IMG/VR virus record: IMGVR_UViG_3300021387_001614
Location: 64,001-128,000 of that record
Strand: one strand, 5' to 3'
DNA: 64,000 nucleotides
Source: a virus
Lineage: Duplodnaviria > Caudoviricetes
Position numbers and translations under genes: made by a program. The notes beneath the pieces were generated by a model, which was not told where the DNA came from, did not search any database, and saw only the letters and a program-made list of their open reading frames with translations. Of the stretch, positions 10,092 through 61,095 are shown one piece after another; positions within the stretch are counted from its first letter, which is position 1, and each line of letters starts with the position of its first letter.

Positions 10092-10478
10092 TTAAAAATC
10101 ACCAAATTCAGCCCTATTTTTCATTTGGCGTTCTTTTGCTTTTTGTATTGTTTCTTTGTCGAGTTCTCTCTTCATCAACATGTTACCCTTTGTTCTGAAA
10201 AGACGGTCTGAATTATTTTTAGCCGTACCACGTTTTTCATTTTCTCTTTCAGAATAATAAACATCAGGATTAACAATCATATTAGCCTTGCCCGCCTTTT
10301 CTTTGGCTGCTTGGTATTGACGAACAGCCTCAAGCCACGCCTTTGTTCCCTTCTTCGACCTCTTTACCCTTGCCTTAAGTGCCTCTAGGTCTTCCTCTTC
10401 TTTTATAATTCTTTTTACTGAATTACTAATAATTCTATGAAGGTCAGATTCCGTTAATCTTATAAGTTTTTTTGCCAT
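10092..10478 (-). CDS. Basic protein with N-terminal LTESDL tag (putative internal head protein)
   Basis: Begins MAKKLIRLTESDLHRIISNSVKRIIKE. Confidence 0.75.
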   Translation of the reverse strand: MAKKLIRLTESDLHRIISNSVKRIIKEEEDLEALKARVKRSKKGTKAWLEAVRQYQAAKEKAGKANMIVNPDVYYSERENEKRGTAKNNSDRLFRTKGNMLMKRELDKETIQKAKERQMKNRAEFGDF

Positions 10479-10493
10479 ATCTTTTTAATGTTT

Positions 10494-10865
10494 TTAATCT
10501 TTATTTCCGGTATCGGTTAGAACTTTATCGCTCTCTAAGAAGACCTTTTTGAAAAATTCATATAAACTCGATGTCGGGCTATCTGAATATTTTTTCAACC
10601 CCTCTATTGCGGTCTCTCTAATTTTACCGATAATAGGCTCATGGCGAATAACTTCATTTGCATGCATTTCTTTCTCCTCTACGCTATCACCACGTTCCAT
10701 GTCATCGTGTCCGCCACGCATTTCTCTTTCATCATAAGGCATTTCATCACCTCCACCCATTTCGGGAGAATCAGAAAATTCGTCATCAAAAACATATGCC
10801 TCGCTTAAATATTTTTTGGCTTCATTTAATGTTCTCATGAAGTCGTTTTTAATGTTTCTTCTCAT
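10494..10865 (-). CDS. Acidic late hypothetical protein with LxE-rich N-terminus
   Basis: Start reassigned to ATG 10865 (MRRNIK), downstream of late motif 10880-10887. Confidence 0.7.
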   Translation of the reverse strand: MRRNIKNDFMRTLNEAKKYLSEAYVFDDEFSDSPEMGGGDEMPYDEREMRGGHDDMERGDSVEEKEMHANEVIRHEPIIGKIRETAIEGLKKYSDSPTSSLYEFFKKVFLESDKVLTDTGNKD

Positions 10866-10924
10866 ATTTCTATTTTCTATATAAATATTATCATAAACAA
10901 AAAATGCAGCCATTCTGGCTGCAT

Positions 10925-11084
10925 TTAAGTATTTTTTAACGTTTTAGTCGATTTCCAAACATATTTAACGATTCCACAATCATATATTCTAAAAATCTCA
11001 AGTTTTTTTGTCATTTCCAATTCTGTCATCGAAAGCGGAAAACCGTATTTCTTATGAAGGATTTGCTTTCTAAAATTAAACTTA
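10925..11084 (-). pseudogene. C-terminal fragment of a homing-endonuclease-like gene, cut by the IS element
   Basis: KFNFRKQIL...TELEM...RIYDCG..KYVW resembles the C-termini of phage Hef-like endonucleases; abuts the left TIR. Confidence 0.65.
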
Positions 11085-11196
11085 GGTAATGATATAGCAG
11101 TTGGCACAAAATAGGCTGTTATACGTATAGAAATGTCCTATAAACGCTGGACTTTTCGTAAATTTGCATTATAATTTAAAAGAAAAGTTCAGCGTT

Positions 11197-12183
11197 ATGA
11201 TTAATTTCAAGAAGTTCAACAACATCATTTCACTCACAGCGTATTTCACCTCTGATGAGAAGTGCAAGCAAGCCATTGTTGAGAGCCGTTGGGGTGTTGG
11301 CAATGAACAAGACGTTGTTTGCCCATATTGTGGTAAGCATCACTGCAAAATGTCCAAGAATGGACGTTTCCATTGCACTGAGTGCAACAAGAACTTTTCT
11401 TGCCTCGTTGGTACTATCTTCGAGAACACAAAGTTGCCACTCATCAAGTGGTTCGTTGCAATGTATCTTATATCTTCTCATAAGAAGGGTATCAGTAGCC
11501 ATCAACTGAGTCGTGACCTTTCAGTTACACAGTCAACTGCTTGGTATATGCTTCAGAAGATTCGTCTTCTTTACCCTCAGAGCGATGCAGATGCATTTGA
11601 GGGTACTGTTGAGTGTGATGAGGTGTACATCGGTGGTAAGGAAAAATGGAAACATAAGTCAATGCGCACTCCCAATACCCAAGGTCGTTCCATGAAGACC
11701 AAGACTCCAGTCTTTGGTATGATGGAGCGTAGCACCTTTGAGAATGAGAAGGGTGAGATTGAGCCTATTACGTATGTCCACGCATTCGTTGTTGAGAACA
11801 CGAATAGAGCCACATTACAGCCAATCATTCAGCAGTTCGTTGCTGATGGTTCAAGAGTCATCACTGATGAACTCAATGCATACAATGGACTTGCTGAGTT
11901 AGGATATACTCACGCTGTGGTTGCCCACGGTGCTGAAGAGTATGCCAATGGTGACGTATTCACCAATAGTATTGAGGGCTTTTGGAGTCACTTCAGACGT
12001 ATGATTGTTGGCTGTTATCACGATGTGTCTGATGAGCATCTTCAGCAGTACATTGACGAGGCTGTGTATCGTTGGAATACAAGAAAAATGAGCGAATCAG
12101 AGAGATTCGCCCATATGTTCGACAAGTCAATCGGGCTTGTTCGTAGATGGAGTGAAATTAGAGTTGGTCTGATGGCTGCATAG
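11197..12183 (+). CDS. IS1595-family (ISXO2-like) DDE transposase
   Basis: CPYCG..C..C zinc ribbon, GTIFENTKLPL..WF, VECDEVYIGG, ITDE...Y, TNSIEGFW, YIDE..YRWN; visibly higher GC than flanks; -7 box TAAATTTG 11159-11166. Confidence 0.95.
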   Translation: MINFKKFNNIISLTAYFTSDEKCKQAIVESRWGVGNEQDVVCPYCGKHHCKMSKNGRFHCTECNKNFSCLVGTIFENTKLPLIKWFVAMYLISSHKKGISSHQLSRDLSVTQSTAWYMLQKIRLLYPQSDADAFEGTVECDEVYIGGKEKWKHKSMRTPNTQGRSMKTKTPVFGMMERSTFENEKGEIEPITYVHAFVVENTNRATLQPIIQQFVADGSRVITDELNAYNGLAELGYTHAVVAHGAEEYANGDVFTNSIEGFWSHFRRMIVGCYHDVSDEHLQQYIDEAVYRWNTRKMSESERFAHMFDKSIGLVRRWSEIRVGLMAA

Positions 12184-12196
12184 ACAAGTATAACAA

Positions 12197-13018
12197 TCAT
12201 CTACGCATTGTTTTTAATATATGTTTACCTGAACTCGTTTGCTCTAAGAAAAAGTCCATACCTTGTTCAATTGCATTGTGTATTATATCTGCCACAGTTG
12301 CATATGCACGTTCATCTAAAATCCATTTTTTTAGCCTTTCTTGATATTGGTCCATTATATTATCATATGCCATATCTGTTGCCTTAGAAACATCATTATA
12401 CAATTCATCATAGCCTGATGCTAACGACCAATGTTCTTTCAATACTCTATTTACTGATTCTTTTACTATCTGTTTCAAATCACTTTCTGTGAGCCTAATC
12501 TGTTTCTTGTTCATATTTGTATATTTTATTTCTGTTATTATTTCTGGTGTTTCGTTTGGTCTTAATACCATTACTTTTGCGTGTTTGTGAGTGTTTGCCA
12601 ATGGGTCTTTAAAACCTTTGTTTTGCCATATATTCTGAACTGCTTGATTTATTAGTGCTGCATCATTATCATCAAGTATTTGGCAGTTGTAAACATACTG
12701 TATAACCTCAAATGATTTCCTTTCACCAACAACATTTCCTTGTTTATCTTTTATTTCCATGTCTACAGACACATCAGATTTATCTTCTCCGTTTTCCGAA
12801 TAAACCACACAAGTGTTTATTGCATAGGATGGGTCATAGTCTTTGTCATACCAAGTCCACAACCAAGTTCCGTGATTTGAAATTCTTGCTTGCATAGGTC
12901 TGCTATCTTCCATCCTATAAGTTCTATAATATGAAGTGTCTCTTCTGTTTGGTTTGAAACCACCATTACGTCTAATTAACTCTATTGCTGTATTAAAATC
13001 AATCATTTTGTTAAACAT
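12197..13018 (-). CDS. IS passenger protein: unknown N-terminal domain (SYY...RISNH) plus internal LTESDL tag
   Basis: Contains MNKKQIRLTESDLKQIVKESVNRVLKE; late motif at 13025-13032. Confidence 0.8.
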   Translation of the reverse strand: MFNKMIDFNTAIELIRRNGGFKPNRRDTSYYRTYRMEDSRPMQARISNHGTWLWTWYDKDYDPSYAINTCVVYSENGEDKSDVSVDMEIKDKQGNVVGERKSFEVIQYVYNCQILDDNDAALINQAVQNIWQNKGFKDPLANTHKHAKVMVLRPNETPEIITEIKYTNMNKKQIRLTESDLKQIVKESVNRVLKEHWSLASGYDELYNDVSKATDMAYDNIMDQYQERLKKWILDERAYATVADIIHNAIEQGMDFFLEQTSSGKHILKTMRR

Positions 13019-13068
13019 TTCTAATATAAATAGTTTGTAAGAAAGAAAAATATTAATTTTGCAGCATT

Positions 13069-13539: not shown

Positions 13540-13586
13540 CTGCTCATTTTAAATAAGCAATTTGTGCCAACTGCTATATTATTGCC

Positions 13587-13702
13587 TGTTTTTTACATGT
13601 AACAATTATATTGGTTTTCGGGTTAACATATACTGATTTACTATAATCGAATAAATCACCATGTTTCTCTTTTGAACGCCTTATAAATTCCTCTGTGTTC
13701 AT
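13587..13702 (-). pseudogene. N-terminal fragment of the interrupted homing-endonuclease-like gene
   Basis: MNTEEFIRRSKEKHGDLFDYSKSVYVNPKTNIIVTCKK, a DUF723-like zinc-ribbon start, ends at TIR-R; its promoter is retained (CAAATATA 13721-13728, CAAA 13748-13751). Confidence 0.7.
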
Positions 13703-13780
13703 AAAATTTTTTCCTTTTTGCAAATATACAATAAATATTTGTAAAAACAAAAAAATAGGGGCAAAAAAACTTTTTATATT

Positions 13781-18835: not shown

Positions 18836-19720
18836 TTACTCTTCTGTTGTATTTTCAAAAACTATTCCGTATCTCTTGCGGTCTTGCTCTTGATTATATA
18901 GTATTTCTTCTTCATTTTTTAATGTTTCATTTACAATATTTGTAAAACTAAAGCCTTCGTTAGTGGTGTAAAGTTTATTTTCGTCAGCACCAAATACACC
19001 GTCATTAGCAAGCGCTTCCCTTGATGCCACGCTCATATCACCCCTGCCATATCCAACATTCCACTCAGGTTCTTCTCTCTGTGGGCTTCTTGTTATGGGC
19101 ATTTCCGAAAGTTTTCTCACCTCAAAAATGTGTCTGCCAATGCAATCACACGCACTTTTTTTATCAAAATAAGGTTTTCCGCCACGCTTAGTTCTTGGTT
19201 TTACACCATATTTGTTTAACGTAATATATATGGCTCTTTCTGTATAATTGCCTTCGTAACCATGCATTTTAAGCATCTTGATTATTTGTGCCGTAGATAC
19301 TAAGTTTACAAACTTTCGCTTTATTTCCGCTTCTGTTAAATTCGTGGTGTTTCCCCCGTTTAACAATCCGTTTATCTCCCTTTGTCCGTTAGGGTTTGCT
19401 GAATGCACATAGAAACGTGGTAATTCCTTATTATTTGCCTTACAATATTTAAGAAGCCACTTTGCACATTCAAACCCCTTTTTCAGCCCCTTGCCAAGGT
19501 CATGGTCAAACGAAATAAACTGAGGAATGCCGTTTTTTAAAATAAACCCCGTAAATTCTTCAAAATTCTTTACCCACACAAACTTAATGTTTCTTTTATT
19601 CATCAAGTTATCATAGTAAGATTTGTTTCTTTTAAAGGTCTTTGAATCTGATTTTTTATTTAAATAGTTATATGGGTTGCGTTTATCGTCTAGCCACAAA
19701 ACAGTTAAATTTTTGCCCAT
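18836..19720 (-). CDS. Cyclic-phosphate-processing receiver-like domain protein with an LTE-containing linker and C-terminal extension
   Basis: LWLDD.RNP, WVK.FEEF, ISFDHDLG, G.ECAKWL, VHSANP.G motifs. Confidence 0.75.
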   Translation of the reverse strand: MGKNLTVLWLDDKRNPYNYLNKKSDSKTFKRNKSYYDNLMNKRNIKFVWVKNFEEFTGFILKNGIPQFISFDHDLGKGLKKGFECAKWLLKYCKANNKELPRFYVHSANPNGQREINGLLNGGNTTNLTEAEIKRKFVNLVSTAQIIKMLKMHGYEGNYTERAIYITLNKYGVKPRTKRGGKPYFDKKSACDCIGRHIFEVRKLSEMPITRSPQREEPEWNVGYGRGDMSVASREALANDGVFGADENKLYTTNEGFSFTNIVNETLKNEEEILYNQEQDRKRYGIVFENTTEE

Positions 19721-20284: not shown

Positions 20285-21085
20285 TTATCTGTAAAATAAA
20301 TGTTTATAATATTGTCTGTAATTATTTGTAAACCAATTAATTACGTTAATTAGCCCTTTATTGGCATATAGTATTCTATCACTAATTATTGATTTAATAT
20401 ACCACACACCTCTTGCATAATCATGAAATATAGGACATACGTATCTGACTGCTCTGCCATTAAATATAGCATCATATTCTTCATCCAACGCATGATATGT
20501 CTCAACACCACTTGCAAGACAAATGACACAATCTTTTCCGTAACATGATTGATTCATCTGCTCGTATTTTATTGTGTTTACAAGATGACCAAAAGCGAAA
20601 ACACCGTTTTTCTCATCGGGCATTAAATTATGCGTCCACGGAAGTTGTTCAAAGTCATCTACACCTTTTTTAAAGCCTTCCTTTGCAATTTCCTCCGCAT
20701 GGTCAGTAAAGTGTATAACCCACTTATTAGAAAATGTTTTTTCGTGGTGCATTGTTAAATGTGCAGGTGCACCATGAAACTCTCCATACCCATTAACAAA
20801 ATTTTCAGACATTTCGTTATAGAAATCATTTGGGTTTGCACCCATTTCAATCGCCATATCATAAATCTCGTTAAAATTATAATATTTAAGATTGTTAAAT
20901 TCATTTCCATATTTTGATACACACCACTCTATAAATGCACCGGGATATTTCTCAATGCACTGTCTTGTTTTCTTCTCTGTATTGGTAAAATAATTTTTAA
21001 GGTCTATACCCTTTTTTTCCCAATACTCAGAAACAGAATTTTCGAAAAGTTTCTTAAATGTACCTTCTGAAATAACAAGTCTCAT
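20285..21085 (-). CDS. Tagged late protein, putative ADP-ribosyltransferase-like fold (paralog of 35726..36448)
   Basis: MRLVISEGTFKKLFE tag variant; WVIHFT..A..IAKEGF, FAF, DEEYDAIF; late motif 21097-21104. Confidence 0.55.
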   Translation of the reverse strand: MRLVISEGTFKKLFENSVSEYWEKKGIDLKNYFTNTEKKTRQCIEKYPGAFIEWCVSKYGNEFNNLKYYNFNEIYDMAIEMGANPNDFYNEMSENFVNGYGEFHGAPAHLTMHHEKTFSNKWVIHFTDHAEEIAKEGFKKGVDDFEQLPWTHNLMPDEKNGVFAFGHLVNTIKYEQMNQSCYGKDCVICLASGVETYHALDEEYDAIFNGRAVRYVCPIFHDYARGVWYIKSIISDRILYANKGLINVINWFTNNYRQYYKHLFYR

Positions 21086-23167: not shown

Positions 23168-23797
23168 ATGATTAATTTAAATTTAAAAGAGGAAGATATT
23201 AAGGAAATAAAATGCACTCTTGATAACGGAAAAATTGTAACATTTAGTATGAGAGATTCTGTTTTACAGGATGTAGACGTAGTTGTGCCACAAGACAACA
23301 CCAAAAGAAATGAAGAATTAATGGGCAAAGAATTTGAAAAATTATTCGATGATTATATCAAGTGGACTGACAAATACAAAAAAATACCCCTATCAAAACA
23401 GGATTTTAAGATACTGTTTTTATCAAAAGAGGGTGTATGGAAAGGCGACACTAAGTTCCCAATCATTACAATTAATGAAAGCAAGACGCCAACATCTTTA
23501 TCTAAAAATGGAGATATCCGCAACACATTAGAAGCCGCAAGAACCGGTGAATGGAAAGAAAATGTTAAGGCAACAGGCTCTTTTGTGCCAAAACCCGAAC
23601 CTCGTGACGGTAAACCAATTAATCGAACACCAACAGCAGCTTCAGATGAAGAAATAAATGATTTCAAGGAGTCACAAAAAGAAAGTGATGAATATAGATG
23701 GGATAAAATCAAAAAAAGCATAGAGAAAGAAGAAGACGAAAAAATAAAAGAGGCTACTGCAATAATTGAACACCGTAAGTATCGCAAACAAGATTAA
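23168..23797 (+). CDS. Hypothetical protein
   Basis: 209 aa ORF in operon with the helicase. Confidence 0.7.
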   Translation: MINLNLKEEDIKEIKCTLDNGKIVTFSMRDSVLQDVDVVVPQDNTKRNEELMGKEFEKLFDDYIKWTDKYKKIPLSKQDFKILFLSKEGVWKGDTKFPIITINESKTPTSLSKNGDIRNTLEAARTGEWKENVKATGSFVPKPEPRDGKPINRTPTAASDEEINDFKESQKESDEYRWDKIKKSIEKEEDEKIKEATAIIEHRKYRKQD

Positions 23798-24226: not shown

Positions 24227-24559
24227 TTAATACCCACTATCAGGCCATTCATCAGGGTGTTCATCCAAATCATTTATGTCATCATCGTTTCCACCAAACT
24301 GACTTCTCTCAAAGTTTCTTACAGCCTCACTTTCGTCATCTTCAATACCGCTAAAATCAAGTCCTACCTCACCGAGTTCGTCAGCAGCGTCCAATTCGTC
24401 ATCTGACGGAACGTCAAATTCATCATCTTGATGCTGCCATTCATTGTCATTTGTTTCTAATGAATCATAATCATCAATGCCAAATTCTTCATTGACAAAA
24501 TCCCTAATTGTTTTTTTAACCGTTTCAAAAATTAATTGGTTTGAAATATTCTTTTTCAT
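24227..24559 (-). CDS. Very acidic small protein with a tag-like N-terminal helix
   Basis: LIFETVKKTIRDFVNE followed by an Asp/Glu-dominated tail. Confidence 0.7.
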   Translation of the reverse strand: MKKNISNQLIFETVKKTIRDFVNEEFGIDDYDSLETNDNEWQHQDDEFDVPSDDELDAADELGEVGLDFSGIEDDESEAVRNFERSQFGGNDDDINDLDEHPDEWPDSGY

Positions 24560-28443: not shown

Positions 28444-31400
28444 TTAACTTTGTGGCGTATATGCGAAACCATTCGTAAGGTTAGTAATAATTTGCTCAAG
28501 TTCAGCAACACGTGATGTAAGTGCCCTTAAATCATCTTTTAATGATGATATATCATTGGCGTTGGTTGTAACATCATCTTTAACGTCATTTAAATCTGCT
28601 GTAATCGCTGAATTTGCAACAGGATTGATAGAATCGGCATCGAGCGCTGTATCAACCATCACAACACCAAAAGTCTGATTACCTGCCACCGGTATGTGTG
28701 CAACACCATCAGCCACCTCAACATTGTGCCATGACGTACCACGCATCACTGCCACGCCGCTTAACTTATTACCGGTGTCTGCCGAAATAGTATTAATTCT
28801 ATCATCAATATCAGTAAGTGCTGCTGCTATAACTTGTTCATTGTTGCTAACAACATCTTCTAAACTCGTCAATCCCGAAGCATCAGCCTTATCATCGAGC
28901 AAGCCATCAACGTCAGTCTTGGTGTAAGTTGTTGCAGTGTCGGCCTTGTTAGCAAGCGCTGTATCAACATCGGTCTTATTATAATAGTTTGACGGGTCGA
29001 ATATGTCCGTCAGTGGTATAGAAATTGTTTGTTTACCTGATTCTTCATTAAATGTGATAACCAAATTATTACCACTAATTTCAACATTATCAACCATGCC
29101 GTCCTTTATAAAGTTGGTAGCATCAATATTAGCTATTGGCTCATCTGCTGTAGATGTTGGGTAGAAATAAATCTTCTTTGCAGTGCTATCATATGCAACT
29201 GCGCCGAATTTACTATTTAACGCTGTTGCAATTTCAGTAGCACCTGATGTTTCATCCTTTGCATAAACATCACTTGCATTTGCTTTTGTAGCAATGGCTG
29301 CCGTATTTGCAGTAACAGCACCACTAATTGTGCTAATATCACTACTTACACTACCCGTGTTGGTTTTTAACGTTTCAACATCACCGCTAATTGTATTGAC
29401 ATTGCCTGATATTTCATTGATTTTCAATGTAATAACTTTATTCTGAACAGGGTTTTCTGATGTTGTAGAAAGAGCGTCATCAACAGTGCCTCCACCTTCA
29501 ATAACTATATTACCCGGTCCTGCAAGGCTTTCACCGTTGATTGTTTTAAGGTTATTAAACCTATCGTTAAGGTCGTTAAGCGATGCGGCCGTAACCCTCT
29601 CATTATCAACAATAGTTCTTGTAACTGCTGAATTCGCAACAGGATTTGGTGAATCCATATCCATTTCATCATCCACCTCTGTTACCACTTCTATAGCGGC
29701 TACTTTATCTGTTACAACAACTTCATCACCGTTAAGCGTTATTGCAGTTATAACATTCTCTTCTGCTTTATTCCACTTAGTTTTATCTTCTGTTGTTACA
29801 TGTATATCCGTATTACCCGTATGTTCTGTGATAGCAGTGTCAATTGCACCAAGGGCAGAAGCTATTTCGGTAGCACCAGATGTTTCCGATTTTGTATAAA
29901 CATTATCAGCGTCTGCTTTCTCCGCAAGTGCGGTATCAACCTCTGTCTTAGTGTAAGTGGTTGCTGTGTCCGCTTTTTCTGCAAGTGCTGCTTCAACGTC
30001 AGCAGTGTTTGCCTTTTCTACAAGTGCTGTTTGTACCTCTGTGAGTGCGGTTTCAATGCCGCTAACAGACGTTTCAAGTGCGCCTACTCTGCCTTCAAGT
30101 TCGTGTACGTCACCCGTCGCTTCCTCAATTCTCTCGTCAGTTTCTGCTTTAGTATAAACATTTCCTAACGCATCCTCAACAGAGTCGCCGTTAGGCATCT
30201 TTATATTGCTTGCACTACCGTTTACATAAAGGTAGTTACGAAGAACATCACCTTCTGTATCAGGTATTAATTCGAGAATATTGTTTTCACTTGTAGAAGC
30301 AATGTGTGTGGTTGCCGATAATCTGTTTTTGTCGGTGCTATCCTTATATTTAATTAACTCAACGCCCGTTGGGAATTCATTTTCAAGAACACCGATTTCA
30401 TCAAATAAATCACTAACAGGAACAGTAATTGTCTGACTTTGGCCCGCTGCATTAGTATATTTTAACTCAAGTGATTTAGTGTTTGGGTCATAATTAATGT
30501 CATTAATTATTGTACCCACACCAAGTGGAATTTCCTTAGAGCCTTCTGTTGTTGTAAATTTTAAGGTGTTGGTGGCTGCACTATATTCAACATCAACCTT
30601 AACATAAAGTCCGTTTGTTGTGTTAATTATGTTACCTGCCTCTGTGCTAATTCTAACATTACCACTAATAACATTTTCATTAGACTTATTAAGTTCTAAC
30701 GTGTTAGTACTTGCAACTGAAACGTCAGCATCACCTATTTTTTCATCAACTTCTGTTTTAGTATAAACGTCTGCTGCATTTGCCTTGCCATCAATTCTGT
30801 CACTTAAGTCTTCATCTGCATGCGTTCTGTTTGCAGTCTCATCGTCTATCAAATGTTCTAACATTGTTTCGGCATTTGTTGCCCTTGTCTGCTCTGCTGT
30901 TACTGCTGACTGTAAGGCAGTCTCGGCACTTGTTGCTCTTGTGATTTCTCCGCTTACAGCATCTTGTAATGTACTAACAGAAGATTTAACATTGGCAATT
31001 TCTGTTTCAGCACTGGTTATTCTTACATCTAATGCAGAGTCGGCTGCTGTTCTTGCTGCCTCTTCGTTTCCTAATTCAGTTTCAATTTCAGCGGTTCTTG
31101 CTAATAATTCGTTAATATCATTCTCATTATCAGTTGTTTTTCCCGATAACTCATTAATATCTACTTCTATTTCATCAAGGAATGGACTTGTTGGTATTTT
31201 TAATTCGTGTACCTCATGTGCGGCTGTTTTGTATGTAATAACAATTTCCTCGTTTGTTTGGTCATAGCCACTATATACAATATTGGTGTCTGCCGACAAT
31301 GGAATTTCCCTTATAACACTTGTTTGTCCCGATTTCGATGTGTCAGAAACTTTAATAACATTAGTGTTAGCGTCATAATCAATTGTCATGTAGATACCGT

Positions 31401-35725: not shown

Positions 35726-36448
35726 TTACTTATTGAAAGTATGCTCTTTTTTATTTGAAAGTTCTTTTCTATATTGCACATAATTTTCTTTAACCCATTT
35801 CACAACCCTTTCAAGACTATTGTTAGAATATAAAGGTTTCCAAAATTTATTTAAATCATTTGATATAACATTCCATTTATGAGGAAAATTTTCCTCACCA
35901 TAATTGTAATTGTTAATGATTCTAACAAAATCGTGTGCAGACTTGTTAAAGAAAATAACTTCCTCACCGTAATCGTTGTGTACAGTGTTTTGCGTCTTTA
36001 TTCCACTAGCAATGAACATAATAGCATCATCAGTCACTTTACCATGACAAAGTTTTTTAACTCTATCGTCAAGATATTTGTCATCAGCGTCAAAGGCAAA
36101 TGAATACCCTTCATCACATTTTGGAAAATTAAAATCACCAGTCATATAGAGATATCTCATTGCGTCTTTTGGAAAAGCCCGTTTAAAACCCTGTGAATAA
36201 ATTATTTCTTTCCCAATATGTACAAGCCATTTAGATTGTATTATTTTTGGTTTTGTAAATGCATAAACATCAGGATTTTTTTCTCCTTTATATATGTCTG
36301 ATGATGCCGCATAGTTAAGGTCGTTTTCAAACCAATGTTCGTCTGGATTTTCAATTTTATCATTTATATAATCATAAAGAGGTTTCATATAATCTTTATC
36401 AAGATATTCCTTTAAAACCCCTCTAACAATTCTTTTAATTGATTTCAT
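35726..36448 (-). CDS. Tagged late protein, putative ART-like fold (paralog of 20285..21085)
   Basis: MKSIKRIVRGVLKE; KWLVH..., GF, FAF, FIASG, EEVIFF, W...NY.QY.K.L shared with the paralog. Confidence 0.55.
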   Translation of the reverse strand: MKSIKRIVRGVLKEYLDKDYMKPLYDYINDKIENPDEHWFENDLNYAASSDIYKGEKNPDVYAFTKPKIIQSKWLVHIGKEIIYSQGFKRAFPKDAMRYLYMTGDFNFPKCDEGYSFAFDADDKYLDDRVKKLCHGKVTDDAIMFIASGIKTQNTVHNDYGEEVIFFNKSAHDFVRIINNYNYGEENFPHKWNVISNDLNKFWKPLYSNNSLERVVKWVKENYVQYRKELSNKKEHTFNK

Positions 36449-38964: not shown

Positions 38965-39213
38965 TTAAGGCATTACTCTTGCACCGTTTTGTGCATTTGC
39001 CCAATAATTTTGTAGTGTTAAGAAATCTCCGAGTTCATCTGTGTCATGCTGTTTTCCATATTTATATTCACCATTTTCGTCATGAACCGGTGCTGTTGTG
39101 GAAATTTCAGCATCACTATTATATTCCTTTACGTCACCGTTATCAAAAGTTGGTGCTGTTTCAGCCTCAAGCAACTTTCTAAACTGTGACTCATTTAAAG
39201 TTATTTTTTTCAT
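38965..39213 (-). CDS. Small tagged protein
   Basis: MKKITLNESQFRKLLE; late motif 39228-39235. Confidence 0.75.
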   Translation of the reverse strand: MKKITLNESQFRKLLEAETAPTFDNGDVKEYNSDAEISTTAPVHDENGEYKYGKQHDTDELGDFLTLQNYWANAQNGARVMP

Positions 39214-39246
39214 TTCTCGTCTTTTCTTATAAATATCACCACAAAA

Positions 39247-39969
39247 TCATTTTTTATTAATATTCTTTTTGAACACTAACTTTGCTTCGTATAAATCACC
39301 ATTGTCCGTTATGAAACTAAATTTGTTTCCAAGTTTAATTGCTTTCAATTCGGAACTATTTTCATTAATTATCTTGCCCTCGTTTAAGTATTTTTTCATG
39401 TATGCGCCAAGATATTTCTTCATTGTAGATTCAACAATTGTTTTAATAAGCGAATAATCCACACCGTTTGACGCTGTTTCTGTTATGACTCCACGTGAAA
39501 CATTCGGCTCTTGATACATACTTTCTTGAATCAATTGTGTATCATTTCCCATTTCTACACCTTCTTCTTTAATTATCGTGCCATCATTATCGGTCTCGAT
39601 ACCAAAAGTTTCTAATATCTCTTTAGGTAAACGTGTTTTTCCACCAACTACAGACGATGTGTTGGTTGTTATTATGTTCTTTCTCCTAAGACTATTTAAC
39701 TTTTTGTTAAGTTCTTCCTCAAGGTACTGACCATGAGCACCTGTTTCTTCATTTAACATACTACTATCAACAGATGGTGTAGTGGTAGTATTTGCAAAAA
39801 CCATTGAATCATATTGTGTTGCGCCTGCTGACGTTTTATTGAGATTTTTCATCCTATCAGCAGTGCGTTCTTTAATTATATGTGAATCTTGTTTTGCGTC
39901 TTGATGTATTAATTGTCTTGCTCTATCTTTAATAGATGCAAATTTGCTACTTGATAATATTTCATCCAT
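39247..39969 (-). CDS. Hypothetical late protein rich in (I/L)xE sites
   Basis: IIKE, MLNE, LIQE, VITE, LIKTIVESTMKKYL, YLNE, IINE. Confidence 0.7.
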   Translation of the reverse strand: MDEILSSSKFASIKDRARQLIHQDAKQDSHIIKERTADRMKNLNKTSAGATQYDSMVFANTTTTPSVDSSMLNEETGAHGQYLEEELNKKLNSLRRKNIITTNTSSVVGGKTRLPKEILETFGIETDNDGTIIKEEGVEMGNDTQLIQESMYQEPNVSRGVITETASNGVDYSLIKTIVESTMKKYLGAYMKKYLNEGKIINENSSELKAIKLGNKFSFITDNGDLYEAKLVFKKNINKK

Positions 39970-39980: not shown

Positions 39981-40733
39981 TTAAACATTATTGTCATCAT
40001 CATCTTTTTCACCCCCATTTGAATGCTTATCGGCTATAGGTCCGCTCTTATTCACTGTTGTTTGGTCTTGTGACATTTTATCATCAACATCTTTCCATAG
40101 TTTATCCCACTCATCCCTTGTTCTTTGTGTTGATGCGATGTTCTTTTTAACCATATCTGTGTCTATGCCGCCATATTTACCTTTTCTTCTTAAAGCACTA
40201 AATCTTATTTGGTTATACGGCACTTTGTCATAAGCACTTGTGTCATTCTTTTTAACATTAACACTACCAAGGTTTTTCGCTGCTGTTGTTCCACCCTTAG
40301 CGGCATTAAGTGACGGTTGATAAAGACCATCTTCATCAAACTGTACTTGTCTGATTATACTTGTCATAGATTTATCGCCATTAGGGTTATATGCAGGAAC
40401 ATTGGCACCGGCGGTTCTTGGGTCTGTAACAAAAGGGTGCTTTTTTCGTGGTTTCCACGATTCTATTCTATCAAGACGTAATGTTTCATATCTCGGTGCG
40501 CCTCTAAAAGAATCACCTTTCCACATAAATGCCCTTATAATAGGATTACCCGCTTTAGAAATTCCATAAACATATGGCTCGATTAATCTTCTTCCGGGCG
40601 CGTGATTTTCCTCATCACTATAATTTATCCATACTTGATACTTGTTGTCAATGGCATCAATAACCAAGTTCGAATCAACAGATTCGGACAACACGCTCTG
40701 CATTATGTCATATAAATTAAGTGTCACGCTCAT
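39981..40733 (-). CDS. WYL-domain protein
   Basis: DAID.KY.V.INY.D......RLIEPY.YG...G...IRAF......LRLDRI. Confidence 0.75.
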   Translation of the reverse strand: MSVTLNLYDIMQSVLSESVDSNLVIDAIDNKYQVWINYSDEENHAPGRRLIEPYVYGISKAGNPIIRAFMWKGDSFRGAPRYETLRLDRIESWKPRKKHPFVTDPRTAGANVPAYNPNGDKSMTSIIRQVQFDEDGLYQPSLNAAKGGTTAAKNLGSVNVKKNDTSAYDKVPYNQIRFSALRRKGKYGGIDTDMVKKNIASTQRTRDEWDKLWKDVDDKMSQDQTTVNKSGPIADKHSNGGEKDDDDNNV

Positions 40734-42498: not shown

Positions 42499-43398
42499 TT
42501 AATAATCTTGTTTGATATTAAAATATCTGCTATATGTAGGGTTTTTATAATTTCCGGCTGTTTTTTGAAACAAAAGTTTTTTAAGATAGTTTGTTTCATC
42601 ACTAATCTCACACTTATTTAGTTCGAGATTTCTCATTTTATCGTAAACATGAATTTTATTTCTTAATTTGGAATTCTTTATTAATTTATATAAACTCATT
42701 CTTTCATTAAGATTTCTTTCGCTAAAATTATACGGTAAAAGTAGTATATCAACTCTTAAAATATATTGATTTGCGTTTGGTATAGCGTTTGCATATGTTG
42801 TAAGTCTATCCTCCGCTTGAAAATAAGGGTGACCTTGTTTATCCCCAACACCATCCACATAACCCATTTTATCACTTTTTTTGCCATAATTAATTGGAAG
42901 ATATGATGATGTATAATCATTGCTTTGCATCATCCATTCTTTGCCATTATAAGCAAACGCCCCATCGTGTTCATCTGCAAATGTATACGGGTCGCCATTA
43001 TTGTGGATTTTATATGCCCAATCAAATGGCTTTATCAGCATGTTATATTGTTTCCCATTAACTTTAAAATTTGGTTTTTTATTAAATAAATCACCGTCTA
43101 TCGTCAAGCGTATTGCACACCAATCATCACCTTTTCCGTCGTCACCTGAATACATTATTATTGGCCAACCTTCCCTAAATGATTTCGTTCTTGAGAATGA
43201 CATTGTATTTTTTCCATTATGCCATTTCTTTTCAAAACCAGTGGGGGTAAACGAATCTGTCTTAACTAACGCCTCAAATCTATCAAAAGATAAAAAATGA
43301 TATAATAAGTTTGAAGCAGATTCTTTTAATACTGATGTTACAGATTCTTTTATGATATTACATAAATCCGTTTCGGTGAGTTTTATTAGTTTCTTCAT
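42499..43398 (-). CDS. LTETDL-tagged protein, putative ART-like fold
   Basis: MKKLIKLTETDLCNIIKESVTSVLKE then LYHF, MSFSRT, IRLTIDGD, QAEDRL. Confidence 0.6.
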   Translation of the reverse strand: MKKLIKLTETDLCNIIKESVTSVLKESASNLLYHFLSFDRFEALVKTDSFTPTGFEKKWHNGKNTMSFSRTKSFREGWPIIMYSGDDGKGDDWCAIRLTIDGDLFNKKPNFKVNGKQYNMLIKPFDWAYKIHNNGDPYTFADEHDGAFAYNGKEWMMQSNDYTSSYLPINYGKKSDKMGYVDGVGDKQGHPYFQAEDRLTTYANAIPNANQYILRVDILLLPYNFSERNLNERMSLYKLIKNSKLRNKIHVYDKMRNLELNKCEISDETNYLKKLLFQKTAGNYKNPTYSRYFNIKQDY

Positions 43399-43438: not shown

Positions 43439-43891
43439 CTATAACATTCCTTTTCCTTTTACAACCCTTTTAATGGATTCTGAAATAATTTTATTTAACC
43501 TTTTTTTATCCTCGTGTATCGTAAAATTCACAAGATAGAGACTGCGCTGCATATCGCTTAAAAAAGACTCGACGTCGCTTCTCATTCCGATATAATCATC
43601 GCCCATATTCTTTAATGACTTATAGAATGCATTGGTTGCGGAAATAACATCCTTAACGAATTTTTTTAAATCCGTAATTTTATACTCTATGGGATTTAGT
43701 TTACCGAATTGTAAATTACCGGTTATTGATTGTTCAACTTCTGAAACTTGGTCTTGAAAATCTGCAATTTTTTCCGCAATATCGTCGCATAATTTATGTT
43801 GGGATAAATTTAAACTATTCCAATGTAAACTTTTTATTGCAGTTTTGAAGCCTTCAAGTCTATTGATAAAGTTTAAAATATTCTTTGTCAT
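43439..43891 (-). CDS. Ferritin/Dps-like four-helix protein with C-terminal tag
   Basis: K.LHWNS....QHKLCDD.......D..SE pattern; ends RLNKIISESIKRVVK. Confidence 0.65.
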   Translation of the reverse strand: MTKNILNFINRLEGFKTAIKSLHWNSLNLSQHKLCDDIAEKIADFQDQVSEVEQSITGNLQFGKLNPIEYKITDLKKFVKDVISATNAFYKSLKNMGDDYIGMRSDVESFLSDMQRSLYLVNFTIHEDKKRLNKIISESIKRVVKGKGML

Positions 43892-44269
43892 TTACATGAG
43901 ATGTTTCTTAATTATTTTCTTCACTACACTTTCAACAATTCTGTTAAGTCTACGTTCTGAACGTATTCTATTTTCCTTTACCGCATTATCATACTCCCAA
44001 CCCTTATGGAAAAATTCTTTTGGTGTAGCATCATTTTTTTCCATGCGTGCATCAAGTTCAGAATCATGTTCGTGTGCTTTTTCAAACTCTAACTCTTCCA
44101 TTGCGTCTTTAACGTTCTCACGGTCAGGTATTTCAGGTGTATTGGCTGTAAGTGCGCCAAAAAGCAACGCACCTGCACCGCCTGCAGCTGCTGCTCTATC
44201 AAACCACTTGCCTTCTTCAATACTTTCTTTTACCAAATTGTCAATGTGCTTTCTTAATTGTCTATCCAT
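43892..44269 (-). CDS. Small protein with tag-like helices at both ends and a central hydrophobic segment
   Basis: IDNLVKESIEE ... AAAAGGAGALLFGAL ... RLNRIVESVVKKIIK. Confidence 0.7.
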   Translation of the reverse strand: MDRQLRKHIDNLVKESIEEGKWFDRAAAAGGAGALLFGALTANTPEIPDRENVKDAMEELEFEKAHEHDSELDARMEKNDATPKEFFHKGWEYDNAVKENRIRSERRLNRIVESVVKKIIKKHLM

Positions 44270-55858: not shown

Positions 55859-55866
55859 AAATTTAT

Positions 55867-58573: not shown

Positions 58574-58577
58574 ACCA

Positions 58578-58682
58578 AAAATACTTTTCTTATAAATATC
58601 GGAAATAGTAAATATATGTTGTTAAGTTTTTTTAACAGAAAATATTTGGTGTTTTAAAACTTTTTTTGTACCTTTGCCATTG
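58578..58682. repeat. 105-bp bidirectional promoter cassette, copy 2
   Basis: Matches 4253..4357; TTTG 58645-58648, TACCTTTG 58669-58676; TGTTAA-N6-TTAACA palindrome. Confidence 0.9.
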
Positions 58683-58714
58683 AACTTAAAAAATATATTT
58701 TATCTAAAAAAATT

Positions 58715-58969
58715 ATGTGCGAATTTTATATGGAAGAACCTTCTTCATCTATTGACCGTGATGAAGTATTTGATGAACTCTCAGAGAGAATCACAAACAA
58801 TTGGGATATAACCATCGAATGGGAAACCTATGAACAAAAAATATATGAAGCAATTGATAAAACAATTACCTCATATACGAAAGATGGCAATCTCTATATT
58901 GAAGATTGGGACATGTGGGACCAAGACCTTTATAATAATGCGGTAGAAGCACTTGGATTATACGATTAG
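58715..58969 (+). CDS. Small acidic early-type protein
   Basis: 84 aa, Asp/Glu/Trp-rich, behind the cassette promoter. Confidence 0.75.
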   Translation: MCEFYMEEPSSSIDRDEVFDELSERITNNWDITIEWETYEQKIYEAIDKTITSYTKDGNLYIEDWDMWDQDLYNNAVEALGLYD

Positions 58970-60783
58970 AAGCCAGATGCACTATAAGCATTAACTAGAC
59001 ACATGATGTTATTACTACTTTGTTCGGGTAATTTTTCCTCTAATGCATCTATCACAATTTTAAGAGTTGCCCCACTATTTATGTCCTCATCAAATATTAA
59101 GAATTTTGCGTTTCTATAACGTTTCAATAATTCTCCATTATTCATGTAGTCATCGGCAACAATATATAAATTTGATAAAAATGGTCTGAATTGCTTCTTA
59201 AATGCCGTTATTTTGAACCGTTTGGTATTGAATCTCAATTTATAGCCTCTTTGTTTAAGCATATCAGAATATTGTTCTATTAATTCTTTTGTTTGCATCA
59301 ATACTTGGTTAAACACTTTTTGCCCTATTTTTCTTTTAATTCTTAGAGACACTTCATTAAAAATGTGCGATGAATTATATCTTTTTTGATAAAGTTTATT
59401 CTGATTGGACAGGAAATTTTTACAAAGGTGCTCAGAAACAGAGTCGTTATCAAGACTATTAACAATTGTTTTATATGCATAAATCATCGTACAGTTAAAA
59501 ACATCTTTCATACTTGTTTTTTCACGACTATGTTTCTGAAGTGATATGTTATTAAAAATTGTTTCATATTGTTTTAGAAAATTACGTATCGGCTCAGATA
59601 CATAATATGCAATTTCGTTATAAGCGATATTCTTAGCTTGGCTCTCGAATTCCATAACGTCTTTTGGAGAAAAGCCTTTAGATAATAAATCTTCTCCATC
59701 AGCATATCTTACGTTTATAACATTTCTTTTAAAAAAGTCGCTAATATATGGAATGCCCAATTTATTACTTAAATTCGTACAATAATATTGGTTAAATTTA
59801 GATGATGAAGGGGCTGATACTATCACGTCTGGTGAGAACTTTTCTTGCCTTAATGCATATGCTGCATAATTAACTGATTTGTCGAGGAATTGAGAAACAG
59901 ACGAATACCCCCCTTCTCCATTTAAGCCAAATTGTTGCTTATAATGTTTATCCCGTACATTATTTAAAGAGAAATTTTGAGCAATGTTAGGTTTTATATT
60001 ACCGTCATATGTTACGTCAATCGTGGCTAAATTACCATTAGCGTCAACACGTCTGTCTTTTTCACCTATGCCAAGTATTTGGTCTGTGTTTCCATTTTGA
60101 CGAACAGTTCCATGTTTAATTGCATCACTAAAATTAAAATCGGTCATTGAGAATAACGATATGTATTTAACATTAGTAGAAGGTACAATACCGGTTAAAT
60201 ACCTTGCTACGTTGTCATTGTTATCCGATTGTGATACACGATTATATGTCATAAATGTTTGTGTTGCCTCAGACGAAATACGATTCAATGTCTTCTTACA
60301 TGCGTCTATAATTTTATTATCAGAGTCGCCCCTATCAAACCATTTCTTCACACTATTCAGTGTAATAGTGTCAAGACCCGGAACTTCTTCTATTGTGCCT
60401 TTACGCCCATTTTGAATATATTGTATTACATTCTGATAAAACTGGATGGCTGCTTGCTTTGATTTATAATTCTGCTCTAATGATTTTGAATTTCCACTTT
60501 CGTTACCATTTTTAGTAAGTATTTTTCCTTTTAGAATATCATCTTTAGTACCAAATACCCTAGTATCAACACTATTTTTACCTTTATTTGAGTTGTTATC
60601 TTTTTTCTGATTTATTGAAAAGTTAATACTACCGTTATCGTTTTTAGACCAATCAACACCTTCATTGATTATATCTAACCAATCAATGATTGCTGTGTTA
60701 TTGCCTTTATTAATGGTGTTTTCAGCATCTTCCTTAATAATTGCAAGTCTTTTAAATTGTTCCTCTTTTAAATTAATTCTCAT
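58966..60783 (-). CDS. Tagged protein with a phosphoribosyltransferase-like domain
   Basis: MRINLKEEQFKRLAIIKE tag variant; DVIVSAPSSSKFN and FLIFDEDINSGATL (PRPP-loop-like). Confidence 0.7.
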   Translation of the reverse strand: MRINLKEEQFKRLAIIKEDAENTINKGNNTAIIDWLDIINEGVDWSKNDNGSINFSINQKKDNNSNKGKNSVDTRVFGTKDDILKGKILTKNGNESGNSKSLEQNYKSKQAAIQFYQNVIQYIQNGRKGTIEEVPGLDTITLNSVKKWFDRGDSDNKIIDACKKTLNRISSEATQTFMTYNRVSQSDNNDNVARYLTGIVPSTNVKYISLFSMTDFNFSDAIKHGTVRQNGNTDQILGIGEKDRRVDANGNLATIDVTYDGNIKPNIAQNFSLNNVRDKHYKQQFGLNGEGGYSSVSQFLDKSVNYAAYALRQEKFSPDVIVSAPSSSKFNQYYCTNLSNKLGIPYISDFFKRNVINVRYADGEDLLSKGFSPKDVMEFESQAKNIAYNEIAYYVSEPIRNFLKQYETIFNNISLQKHSREKTSMKDVFNCTMIYAYKTIVNSLDNDSVSEHLCKNFLSNQNKLYQKRYNSSHIFNEVSLRIKRKIGQKVFNQVLMQTKELIEQYSDMLKQRGYKLRFNTKRFKITAFKKQFRPFLSNLYIVADDYMNNGELLKRYRNAKFLIFDEDINSGATLKIVIDALEEKLPEQSSNNIMCLVNAYSASGF

Positions 60784-60792
60784 AACGCTTTT

Positions 60793-61095
60793 TTATCCTA
60801 TTAAATGATATCCTTCTTTTTCAGCATAATCTTGTGCAATCCTCATTGCATCTTCATAAGTATTATATGGGCCGTCAACATATCCGGCAGATGAATTTTG
60901 TAAATCTTCCGCTTCATTTCTTTCTACAACGGTACAAATGGTATCCTCATAGCCAATGGTTTCAATTGCCACATAATAGCCATCAGGCAGTGGTTCATTA
61001 TCCCATCCGTCGTAAATCTCTTCTTTTAAAACCCTTCTTATTGACTCTTTTACAATTCTATGCAAATCTGATTCTGTTAAGTTAATTTTTTTCAT
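60793..61095 (-). CDS. Small acidic protein with N-terminal LTESDL tag
   Basis: MKKINLTESDLHRIVKESIRRVLKE; late motif 61109-61116. Confidence 0.8.
   Translation of the reverse strand: MKKINLTESDLHRIVKESIRRVLKEEIYDGWDNEPLPDGYYVAIETIGYEDTICTVVERNEAEDLQNSSAGYVDGPYNTYEDAMRIAQDYAEKEGYHLIG

What the first reader, a model, noticed from the sequence alone, without database searches (positions are those of the whole stretch)
10092..61095. Portable LTESDL peptide tag on many unrelated late proteins: candidate capsid-loading system for injected effectors
Seen: four near-perfect copies of KKxI(R/K/N)LTE(S/T)DLxxI(V/I)xxS(V/I)xx(V/I)(L/I)KE occur at the N-termini of 10092..10478, 42499..43398 and 60793..61095, and internally in 12197..13018. 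A variant (R/K)IxLxExQFKxL starts 38965..39213, 58966..60783 and 20285..21085. Half-tags occur in 35726..36448, 24227..24559, 43439..43891 (C-terminal), 43892..44269 (both ends), 39247..39969, 39981..40733, 10494..10865 and 18836..19720. The DNA copies differ at synonymous positions, so the peptide is what is conserved. All carriers are minus-strand genes in operons preceded by the late motif or a variant of it. Sheath, tube, tape measure and the replication or metabolic enzymes lack the tag; one weak look-alike starts 23168..23797. Established: T4 internal proteins use a short N-terminal capsid-targeting sequence, and the gp21 prohead protease cleaves after (I/L)xE. This tag contains up to three such sites (LTE, VKE, LKE). 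Inference: it is a position-independent helical address label that binds the prohead core, is clipped at maturation, and lets the phage swap in diverse payloads for injection.
Basis: partly seen in the sequence, partly recalled or inferred. Interest (0 to 1): 0.92.

Follow-up and report, generated by a model that had tools for sequence, protein, structure and literature searches.

The report
Capsid-loading leader peptide of rumen jumbo phages
A giant phage of rumen Prevotella puts the same 26-residue leader, ending in the cutting motif of a T4-type head protease, on many unrelated small proteins; it is most likely a label that loads them into the capsid, a larger, untested version of a trick known from phage T4.

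Summary
The core observation is real. MKKxIRLTESDLHRIVKESVxRILKE occurs four times in the window and nine times in this 147-kb contig, a 44%-complete jumbo-phage fragment. It is conserved as a peptide, not as DNA. Two of the three "variant" carriers belong to a recurrent shorter leader. Most "half-tags" are noise.

Complete relatives (295-412 kb) carry 9-20 tags each. The protein database holds over 4,800 tagged proteins, with more than 120 unrelated payload families.

Five lines favour a T4-style capsid-targeting, protease-clipped leader:
- Both invariant Glu lie in (L/I)xE, the T4 gp21 motif.
- Relatives encode a gp21-type protease, and tagged genes cluster beside it in the T4 gp67/gp68 slot.
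- Tagged genes share the TATTTAT promoter motif of the capsid, scaffold and protease genes.
- LxE and IxE are the two most depleted of 296 tripeptide patterns in payloads, but enriched in scaffold and capsid propeptide.
- Orthologues of one payload, an ADP-ribosyltransferase-like fold, swap leaders yet keep (L/I/F)xE at the junction.

Packaging, cleavage and injection are untested. Tagged genes also sit in Prevotella chromosomes as IS1595 passengers that keep the phage promoter. This scan has found comparable leaders in other T4-like giant phages.

The parts
10092..10478 (-). Tagged gene (128 aa). The tag is residues 2-28 (nt 10395-10475); the payload is basic and low in complexity.
   Evidence: Tag HMM E 1.5e-17; sequence.
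12197..13018 (-). IS1595 passenger gene (273 aa): an unknown domain of about 165 aa, then Met, then the tag (residues 170-196, nt 12431-12511), then about 80 aa. TATTTAT lies 7 nt upstream (13026-13032 on the + strand).
   Evidence: HMM E 6.5e-18. Homologues with the same layout are in Prevotella genomes and relatives. Motif coordinates.
11164..12183 (+). IS1595-family transposase, convergent with the tagged passenger gene.
   Evidence: PF12762 6.4e-45 and PF12760 1.7e-9. Homologues lie beside tagged genes in 37 loci.
42499..43398 (-). Tagged gene (299 aa). The tag is residues 1-26 (nt 43321-43398). The payload has an ADP-ribosyltransferase-like fold, nearest to DarT and Tpt1.
   Evidence: HMM E 3e-16. 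AF2 pLDDT 79, pTM 0.76. All top structural matches are ART-fold proteins: Foldseek prob 0.92-0.94 to DarT, Z 6-7.6 to Tpt1/DarT. In 38 orthologues the leader varies but the (L/I/F)xE junction is kept.
60793..61095 (-). Tagged gene (100 aa). The tag is residues 1-25 (nt 61021-61095); the payload is acidic. TATTTAT lies 14 nt upstream (61110-61116).
   Evidence: HMM E 4.5e-17. AF2: residues 1-20 pLDDT 94, helix 8-28, the rest poorly modelled. Motif coordinates.
38965..39213 (-). Gene with the short variant leader MKKITLNESQFRKLLE (nt 39160-39213). It carries LNE and LLE motifs, and TATTTAT lies 15 nt upstream (39229-39235).
   Evidence: Variant HMM, with five non-seed N-terminal hits in relatives. 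Motif coordinates. This sequence was a seed, so its own score is not independent.
58966..60783 (-). 605-aa gene with the variant leader MRINLKEEQFKRL (nt 60733-60783) and a phosphoribosyltransferase-like C-terminal end.
   Evidence: Variant HMM E 3.5e-5, but this sequence was a seed. It has no Pfam hit of its own. One tagged protein of a relative hits Pribosyltran. The PRTase reading here rests on the visible FDEDINSGAT motif.
43439..43891 (-). DUF5856-like gene with a weak C-terminal half-tag (nt 43457-43498). Its G005 homologue continues into a 580-aa protein with two diverged full tags.
   Evidence: HMM E 0.0016 to 0.036. PF19174 E 1.3e-5, below the family cut-off. blastp to the G005 protein: 61% over 143 aa.
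43892..44269 (-). Small gene with a weak C-terminal half-tag (nt 43907-43960). Marginal.
   Evidence: HMM E 0.011 with the broad profile.

Best explanation
The 26-residue leader is most likely a capsid-targeting propeptide of a clade of T4-type jumbo myophages that infect rumen Prevotellaceae. It has a basic extended start, MKKxIR, followed by a helix of about 20 residues, LTESDLHRIVKESVxRILKE.

Proposed mechanism: the tagged proteins are made late, together with the head proteins. The leader docks them into the assembling prohead core. The gp21-type (Peptidase_S77) prohead protease then cuts after the invariant Glu of L-T-E (position 9) and of (L/I)-x-E (position 26). This releases an intact payload that stays in the head and probably enters the next host with the DNA. 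Payloads include an ART-fold protein, a NUDIX enzyme and many small charged proteins.

Shown here:
- the leader and its breadth;
- its late-promoter link;
- its clustering next to the protease;
- the invariant (L/I)xE grammar;
- avoidance of that motif in payloads.

Inferred, not shown: physical docking, the docking partner, the cleavage itself, retention in the head and injection.
For: 1. Breadth and portability.
- This contig has 9 tags. Five complete relatives of 295-412 kb have 9-20 each.
- At least 4,874 database proteins carry the tag.
- 170 payload segments fall into 126 unrelated clusters. Only 5 Pfam families were hit, by 6 of 133 tagged proteins.

2. Protease.
- PF03420 is above cut-off in 8 of 9 tag-bearing records that are at least 90% complete.
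- The head-module order in relatives is TerL, portal, a 765-aa protein, a 144-aa protein, 1-4 tagged genes, protease, an acidic 480-520-aa scaffold candidate, then the major capsid protein. The tagged genes occupy the slot of the T4 core proteins gp67/gp68.
- 10 of 70 tags lie within 3 kb of the protease, against 1.1 expected (p 2e-7).
- 8 of 17 contigs covering at most 15% of a genome, fished out through the tag, hold the protease, against about 12% expected (p 4e-4).

3. Late promoter.
- TATTTAT lies 15-45 nt upstream of the capsid, scaffold, protease and portal genes of relatives, and of their tagged genes.
- It is within 60 nt upstream of 62 of 118 tagged genes against 122 of 446 other ORFs in viral loci (p 3e-7). 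In bacterial loci the figures are 28 of 40 against 26 of 231 (p 3e-14).

4. Tag logo from 373 unique tags.
- E9 and E26 are 100% conserved, L7 90% and L/I24 93%.
- Conservation stops at E26, and Gly, Asp and Pro follow it.
- T4 gp21 cuts after L/I-x-E, and CTS residues 8 and 10 govern processing (PMC9026906).

5. Motif avoidance in payloads.
- [LI]xE observed/expected is 0.79 in payloads (95% CI 0.65-0.94) against 1.21 in size-matched untagged neighbours.
- LxE and IxE rank first and second of 296 a-x-b patterns for depletion.
- [LI]xD, [LI]xK, [LI]xQ and Ex[LI] are not depleted.
- A second set of 221 segments replicates the result at 0.74.
- Positive controls behave as in T4. The capsid protein has 4-5 [LI]xE sites in its first 60 residues (5 in three of the four relatives) and few afterwards. 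The scaffold candidate is enriched 1.6-2.2-fold.

6. Leader swapping.
- The 38 orthologues of 42499-43398 carry a full, truncated, variant or unrelated leader.
- All keep (L/I/F)xE just before the payload core. In the 29-sequence alignment A7, E26 is invariant and L24 is at least 90% conserved.

7. Payload parallel.
- That payload has an ART-like fold. T4 Alt, a packaged protein processed by gp21, is an ADP-ribosyltransferase by my own knowledge.
Against: - There is no virion proteomics, cleavage assay or cultured phage. Every step after translation is inferred.
- This contig lacks the head module, because it is a fragment, so the protease link rests on relatives.
- About 80% of tags lie far from the head module.
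- In this contig the late-motif enrichment is only p=0.05.
- One record rated 95% complete (G025) has no detectable protease and only fragments of a capsid-protein match.
- The tag shows no profile similarity to the scaffold candidate, and no docking partner is identified.
- Payloads still hold about three quarters of the expected [LI]xE sites.
- Other hydrophobic-x-hydrophobic patterns are also low in payloads. After cluster weighting IxI ranks above IxE and LxE. Part of the signal could therefore reflect structural make-up.
- Tagged genes in host chromosomes have no capsid to enter unless a phage infects.
- (L/I)xE is common in amphipathic helices in general.
Confidence: 0.6

Rival explanations
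1. The tagged proteins are assembly-only prohead core or scaffold accessories, like T4 gp67 and gp68. The leader brings them into the core, but they are degraded and expelled at maturation. They would not be kept or injected as effectors.
For: The tagged genes conserved between relatives sit exactly in the gp67/gp68 slot between portal and protease. Many payloads are short, acidic and low in complexity: 44% are clearly acidic against 26% of controls.
Against: Payloads avoid the protease motif, whereas the scaffold candidate is enriched in it. Some payloads are folded enzymes: an ART-like fold and a NUDIX domain. Payload families are very diverse and turn over, which is unlike structural core parts.
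Confidence: 0.17
2. The helix is a docking module for a partner outside the capsid, either a conserved Prevotella protein or a phage hub. It would recruit diverse small proteins in the cytoplasm, with no proteolysis.
For: The sequence is highly conserved across many phages of one host group. Copies exist in host chromosomes. Some tags are internal or repeated. AF2 models a free-standing helix.
Against: All tag-bearing viral contigs look like one jumbo-phage clade rather than diverse phages. This reading does not explain the invariant Glu at the exact end of conservation or the LxE/IxE-specific depletion in payloads. It also does not explain the kept (L/I/F)xE junction under different leaders, or the clustering beside the protease.
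Confidence: 0.1
3. The leader is a recognition sequence for a modifying enzyme, in the manner of RiPP precursors, or an anchor for proteins on the outside of the capsid or tail, such as decoration or fibre adaptors.
For: Another shared phage leader in this scan turned out to track a radical-SAM enzyme (e1-127136). N-terminal anchors with variable C-terminal parts are usual for fibres.
Against: No enzyme or other gene apart from the IS1595 transposase recurs beside tags. Payloads are small charged proteins or enzymes, not fibre-like. Proteins on the outside of the capsid would not need to avoid the prohead protease motif.
Confidence: 0.05

Closest known systems
Phage T4 capsid targeting sequence (CTS) on internal proteins IPI, IPII, IPIII and Alt, removed by the gp21 prohead protease (PMC9026906; Mullaney and Black 1996, as cited there)
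   Same: - A short N-terminal leader is shared by otherwise unrelated proteins.
- The leader ends in (L/I)xE.
- The clade encodes a gp21-family protease.
- Expression goes with the head genes.
- Payload sets vary between relatives.
- One payload is ART-like, as Alt is.
   Different: - The leader has 26 residues against 10, and two or three motif copies.
- There is no evident sequence relation to the T4 CTS.
- Each genome has 9-20 carriers, and there are more than 120 payload families.
- Tandem multi-tag proteins exist.
- A second, shorter leader class is interchangeable with the first.
- Cassettes are carried by IS1595 into host chromosomes.
- Nothing has been tested at the bench.
Processed head and ejection proteins of giant phages phiKZ, 201phi2-1 and SPN3US (PMC5694885, PMC9026906)
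   Same: - These are jumbo phages with many internal head proteins cut after Glu by a gp21 relative.
- Their propeptides contain redundant cleavage sites.
- The SPN3US paralogues gp53 and gp54 share an identical 15-residue N-terminus.
   Different: - Their cleavage motif is S/A-x-E, not L/I-x-E.
- Their propeptides are mostly longer than 100 residues and are not one portable conserved tag.
- They have a different head-gene layout and different hosts.
T4 prohead core proteins gp67 and gp68
   Same: Both are small genes between portal and protease whose products enter the core and are cut by gp21. The tagged genes conserved between relatives occupy this slot.
   Different: No sequence similarity was tested or seen. 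Here the same leader also heads dozens of dispersed, fast-changing genes.
Passenger-carrying ('transporter') IS1595 elements
   Same: An intact DDE_Tnp_IS1595 transposase lies convergent with a passenger gene. The same layout occurs in Prevotella chromosomes.
   Different: The passenger is a phage-type cassette of late-promoter motif, capsid-type leader and payload.

Membership tests
T4-type capsid-targeting propeptide system (CTS + gp21) | One short N-terminal leader is shared by otherwise unrelated proteins of one phage. | tested here: met
   The contig has 9 carriers and relatives have 9-20. Payloads fall into 126 unrelated clusters, and 127 of 172 tags are N-terminal.
T4-type capsid-targeting propeptide system (CTS + gp21) | The leader ends in the protease motif L/I-x-E. 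| tested here: met
   E26 is 100% and L/I24 93% conserved. A second site has L7 at 90% and E9 at 100%. The junction is kept in 38 orthologues with differing leaders. The motif is as given in PMC9026906.
T4-type capsid-targeting propeptide system (CTS + gp21) | The phage encodes a gp21-family (Peptidase_S77) prohead protease. | tested here: inconclusive
   This contig has none, being a 44%-complete fragment without a head module. The protease is present above cut-off in 8 of 9 near-complete tag-bearing relatives. One record at 95% completeness has none.
T4-type capsid-targeting propeptide system (CTS + gp21) | Carriers are expressed late, with the head genes. | tested here: met
   This rests on a shared promoter motif only. 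TATTTAT lies upstream of the capsid, scaffold and protease genes and of 57% of tagged genes. There are no transcript data.
T4-type capsid-targeting propeptide system (CTS + gp21) | The leader is necessary and sufficient for packaging, and is removed in the prohead. | not testable with these tools
   This needs virion mass spectrometry, a protease assay or a reporter fusion. The only indirect support is LxE/IxE avoidance in payloads.
T4-type capsid-targeting propeptide system (CTS + gp21) | The leader is homologous in sequence to the T4 CTS. | not tested
   The T4 CTS has 10 residues and this leader has 26. No alignment was run, because no tool returned the T4 peptide.
ADP-ribosyltransferase fold (payload of 42499-43398) | The ART core fold, with a conserved His in strand 1 and an acidic catalytic residue. 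| tested here: inconclusive
   All top structural matches are ART-fold proteins (DarT, Tpt1, SopF, pertussis S1), but Z is only 6-7.6 and Foldseek E about 6e-3. Y33-H34-F35 and E196 are invariant in orthologues. There is no Pfam hit.
IS1595 insertion sequences | A DDE_Tnp_IS1595 transposase with an N-terminal zinc ribbon. | tested here: met
   PF12762 6.4e-45 and PF12760 1.7e-9 on 11164-12183. I did not re-check the terminal inverted repeats; they are taken from note e1-5687441.

The most novel reading that the evidence does not exclude
The IS1595-borne cassettes in Prevotella chromosomes each consist of a phage late-promoter motif, the capsid leader and a payload. They may not be dead cargo. 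They could stay silent until a phage of this clade infects, then be switched on by the phage's own late transcription and loaded into its proheads. That would make them either a host- or transposon-encoded 'Trojan horse' that spoils or exploits progeny virions, or a shared reservoir from which phages draw new injected effectors.
Probability: 0.12. Interest if true: 0.85.

Novelty: new variant of a known kind. Interest (0 to 1): 0.62.

Why it matters
If the reading holds, one 26-residue profile marks the injected or packaged protein repertoire of a whole clade of uncultured rumen jumbo phages. That repertoire spans thousands of proteins in more than 100 families, nearly all without annotation. 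It would be a ready list of candidate host-takeover and anti-defence effectors, among them an ART-like enzyme and a NUDIX hydrolase.

It would also give three further things:
- a natural, long and highly conserved packaging tag for loading foreign proteins into phage heads;
- a simple computational signature, avoidance of the protease motif, for predicting head-internal proteins without proteomics;
- an example of transposons moving such cassettes between phages and their hosts.

The principle itself has been known from T4 since the 1990s, and this scan has met comparable leaders in other T4-like giant phages. The advance is therefore one of scale, grammar and mobility, not a new mechanism.

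Tried and rejected
- Pfam and PHROGs give no family for the tag or for nearly all payloads.
- tblastn of the tag and of a tagged protein against 50,697 GenBank phage records gave nothing usable. The query is short and the clade is uncultured.
- A full-text search for 'LTESDL' found no paper. Papers on gut and rumen jumbo phages do not mention such a leader.
- The first search for related loci attempt, with all 9 tags, failed for lack of a conserved stretch. A 4-sequence alignment worked.
- hhalign of the tag against the acidic scaffold candidate showed no relation (probability 0.6%). This drops the idea that the tag copies a scaffold segment.
- I considered a ribbon-helix-helix DNA-binding N-terminus, from a remembered likeness to CopG-type strand-plus-helix. 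I rejected it because only 26 residues are conserved, there is no second helix and no RHH Pfam hit, and the grammar fits protease sites better.
- I considered a modifying-enzyme recognition leader, after note e1-127136. No recurrent neighbouring enzyme was found.
- The ESM Atlas look-up of the 42499-43398 payload was uninformative.
- A tag-like match in a Prochlorococcus single-cell contig (L120) is marginal, and its context was unresolved.
- The AF2 model of 60793-61095 modelled the payload poorly, so no fold search was run on it.
- The missing protease in record G025 could not be explained.

Full report
WHAT THE DNA IS

The window is bases 64001-128000 of a single 146,936-bp viral contig. 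CheckV rates the contig 44% complete. It encodes a long tail sheath, a tape-measure protein, DNA polymerase, helicase, UvsX-like recombinase, a sigma factor, SbcC and anaerobic ribonucleotide reductase. No capsid, portal or protease gene was found on it.

Neighbours of tagged genes in other contigs are 50-90% identical to its genes. Complete relatives measure 295-412 kb, and two of them have terminal repeats. The contig is therefore a fragment of a jumbo myophage.

Matches in bacterial assemblies are almost all Prevotella, Prevotellaceae or Bacteroidales from rumen and gut. That group is the likely host.

THE OBSERVATION

A profile built from the copies finds nine in the contig, all on the minus strand. 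Eight are at N-termini and one is internal, directly after a Met.

After widening the profile to 431 tags from relatives, the same nine stand out. Only three weak partial matches follow, at E 0.01-0.04.

The 'variant' is real in part. A shorter leader, MK(I/K)IxLNESQ(F/Y)(K/R)(K/R)L(F/L)E, recurs at N-termini in relatives. 38965-39213 and 58966-60783 carry it, though both were seeds of the profile. 20285-21085 is not detected.

Selection is on the peptide. Identical residues use the same codon only 48% of the time.

BREADTH

- The 5.8-billion-protein collection holds at least 4,874 tagged proteins. The best-scoring of these carry 2-4 tags each.
- Five complete relatives have 9-20 tags each.
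- By their completeness estimates, all tag-bearing viral contigs look like pieces of the same jumbo clade.
- Of 172 tags in fetched loci, 127 are N-terminal. Most of the rest keep a Met just before the tag. Those 10-45 residues in are ORF-extension artefacts, and those further in look like fusions of a tagged gene behind another ORF.
- 170 payload segments fall into 126 clusters with no detectable similarity.
- Only 6 of 133 tagged proteins hit any Pfam family: one NUDIX, one phosphoribosyltransferase, two DUF3008 and two zinc ribbons.

LINK TO THE HEAD

Near-complete relatives encode a Peptidase_S77 (T4 gp21-type) prohead protease, in 8 of 9 records.

In four relatives the head-module order is: large terminase, portal, a 765-aa protein, a 144-aa protein, one to four tagged small genes, protease, a very acidic 480-520-aa protein that I take to be the scaffold, then the major head protein. 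In T4 the order is portal, gp67, gp68, gp21, gp22, gp23. The conserved tagged genes thus sit where T4 keeps its small core proteins.

- Ten of 70 tags lie within 3 kb of the protease, against 1.1 expected.
- Eight of 17 small contigs (at most 15% of a genome) that were retrieved through the tag also contain the protease.
- These counts are not independent events, because the genomes are related and tags cluster. The direction is nonetheless clear.

TIMING

The motif TATTTAT lies 15-45 nt upstream of the capsid, scaffold, protease and portal genes of relatives, and of the tagged genes among them.

- Across viral loci it precedes 62 of 118 tagged genes against 122 of 446 other ORFs.
- In bacterial loci it precedes 28 of 40 tagged genes against 26 of 231 other ORFs.
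- In this contig the enrichment is weak, 6 of 9 against 45 of 127.

GRAMMAR

In 373 unique tags the two fully invariant residues are Glu9 and Glu26. Each is preceded at -2 by Leu or Ile: L7 at 90% and L/I24 at 93%. Conservation ends exactly at Glu26, and Gly, Asp and Pro follow.

T4 gp21 cuts after L/I-x-E, and in the T4 CTS residues 8 and 10 govern processing (PMC9026906).

AF2 models residues 8-28 of 60793-61095 as one confident helix after an extended basic start.

A TEST OF EXPOSURE TO THE PROTEASE

Proteins that must survive inside a prohead should avoid the protease's motif. I compared observed and composition-expected counts of every residue-x-residue pattern in payloads, and in untagged ORFs of the same loci.

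- LxE and IxE are the two most depleted of 296 patterns (z -4.3 and -3.8).
- With one vote per cluster and size-matched controls, [LI]xE is 0.79 of expectation (0.65-0.94) against 1.21 (1.13-1.28). IxE and LxE then rank second and third, behind IxI.
- [LI]xD, [LI]xK, [LI]xQ and Ex[LI] are not depleted. VxE was not depleted in the first set (0.95), but fell to 0.77 in the second.
- A second, non-identical set of 221 segments from database proteins gives 0.74 for [LI]xE.
- The proteins that should be cut show the opposite. The capsid protein has four or five [LI]xE sites in its first 60 residues (five in three of the four relatives), the last being I-Y-E or L-K-E before Ala. The scaffold candidate is enriched about twofold.

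LEADER SWAPPING

The payload of 42499-43398 has 38 orthologues. Their leaders are the full tag, truncated tags, the short variant or unrelated sequence. Every one ends (L/I/F)-x-E just before the conserved payload start.

The two leader classes are therefore interchangeable. The junction motif is what is kept.

That payload is modelled with pLDDT 79. All of its best structural matches are ADP-ribosyltransferase-fold proteins: DarT, Tpt1/KptA, SopF and the pertussis and cholera A subunits. The scores are middling, Z 6-7.6. T4's packaged, gp21-processed Alt is an ADP-ribosyltransferase by my own knowledge.

A relative encodes the tag, a Gly/Gln-rich linker of about 45 residues and a NUDIX domain, 4 kb from its protease.

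HOST-CHROMOSOME COPIES

In 24 of 36 bacterial-genome loci an IS1595 transposase lies within 4 kb of the tagged gene. Two of these genomes are isolates: Segatella bryantii DSM 11371 and Prevotella sp. MA2016. There the cassette is flanked by ordinary host genes.

The window's own example is 11164-12183 (transposase) with passenger 12197-13018. These copies keep the phage promoter motif. What they do in the host is open.

VERDICT

The system works like the T4 CTS and gp21, and meets every membership feature that sequence can test. It differs in length, sequence, scale and mobility. Packaging, cleavage and injection are inferred. I put the capsid-targeting, clipped-leader reading at about 0.6. 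The main rival, that the proteins are assembly-only core parts, is a variant of the same idea.

The scan has reported comparable leaders in other T4-like giant phages, and an 'RLTEGDL-family' gene in another giant phage.

Noticed in passing
window 42499-43398 (-): The payload behind the tag is predicted to have an ADP-ribosyltransferase-like fold nearest to DarT and Tpt1. Y-H-F and a Glu are invariant in 29 aligned homologues. It has no Pfam family.
   Followed up: partly
L089 (Segatella bryantii DSM 11371 chromosome) 4001-4264; L093 (Prevotella sp. MA2016) 3398-5413: Tagged genes sit among ordinary host genes, next to an IS1595 transposase that is degraded in S. bryantii and intact in MA2016. 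They still have the phage TATTTAT motif upstream.
   Followed up: partly
window 18836-19720 (-): This 294-aa protein has an N-terminal cREC_REC domain (PF20274, cyclic-phosphate processing receiver domain, E 8.5e-21).
   Followed up: no
G005:C1:120214-121956 (-) versus window 43439-43891: The DUF5856-like protein of the window is only the first 143 residues of a 580-aa protein in a complete relative. That protein continues through two diverged tags, so it is either a split or fused cargo polyprotein or a case of gene fission.
   Followed up: partly
L125:7807-9633 (+) (G002): In one complete relative the prohead protease domain lies in a 608-aa ORF with a long N-terminal extension. A tagged gene starts 33 nt after its stop.
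   Followed up: no
L127:8708-9679 (-) (G003): An HNH or homing-type endonuclease gene is inserted between the tagged genes and the protease in one relative.
   Followed up: no
window 33105-35222 (-) and 28444-33075 (-): Large late genes. One has a Fib_succ_major domain. The other has patches resembling tail fibres of Vibrio and crAss-like phages. They are probably host-binding proteins.
   Followed up: no
L071:2998-3762 (+): A NUDIX hydrolase carries a full N-terminal tag and a disordered-looking linker of about 45 residues. It lies about 4 kb from the prohead protease of that contig. In the window's own genome the NUDIX gene is untagged, but it overlaps the start of a tagged gene by 4 nt.
   Followed up: partly
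G025 (IMG/VR record behind L034, 317 kb): The record is rated 95% complete, yet has no detectable S77 protease and only fragmentary capsid-protein matches. Either the head module is missing from the contig or it is very diverged.
   Followed up: partly
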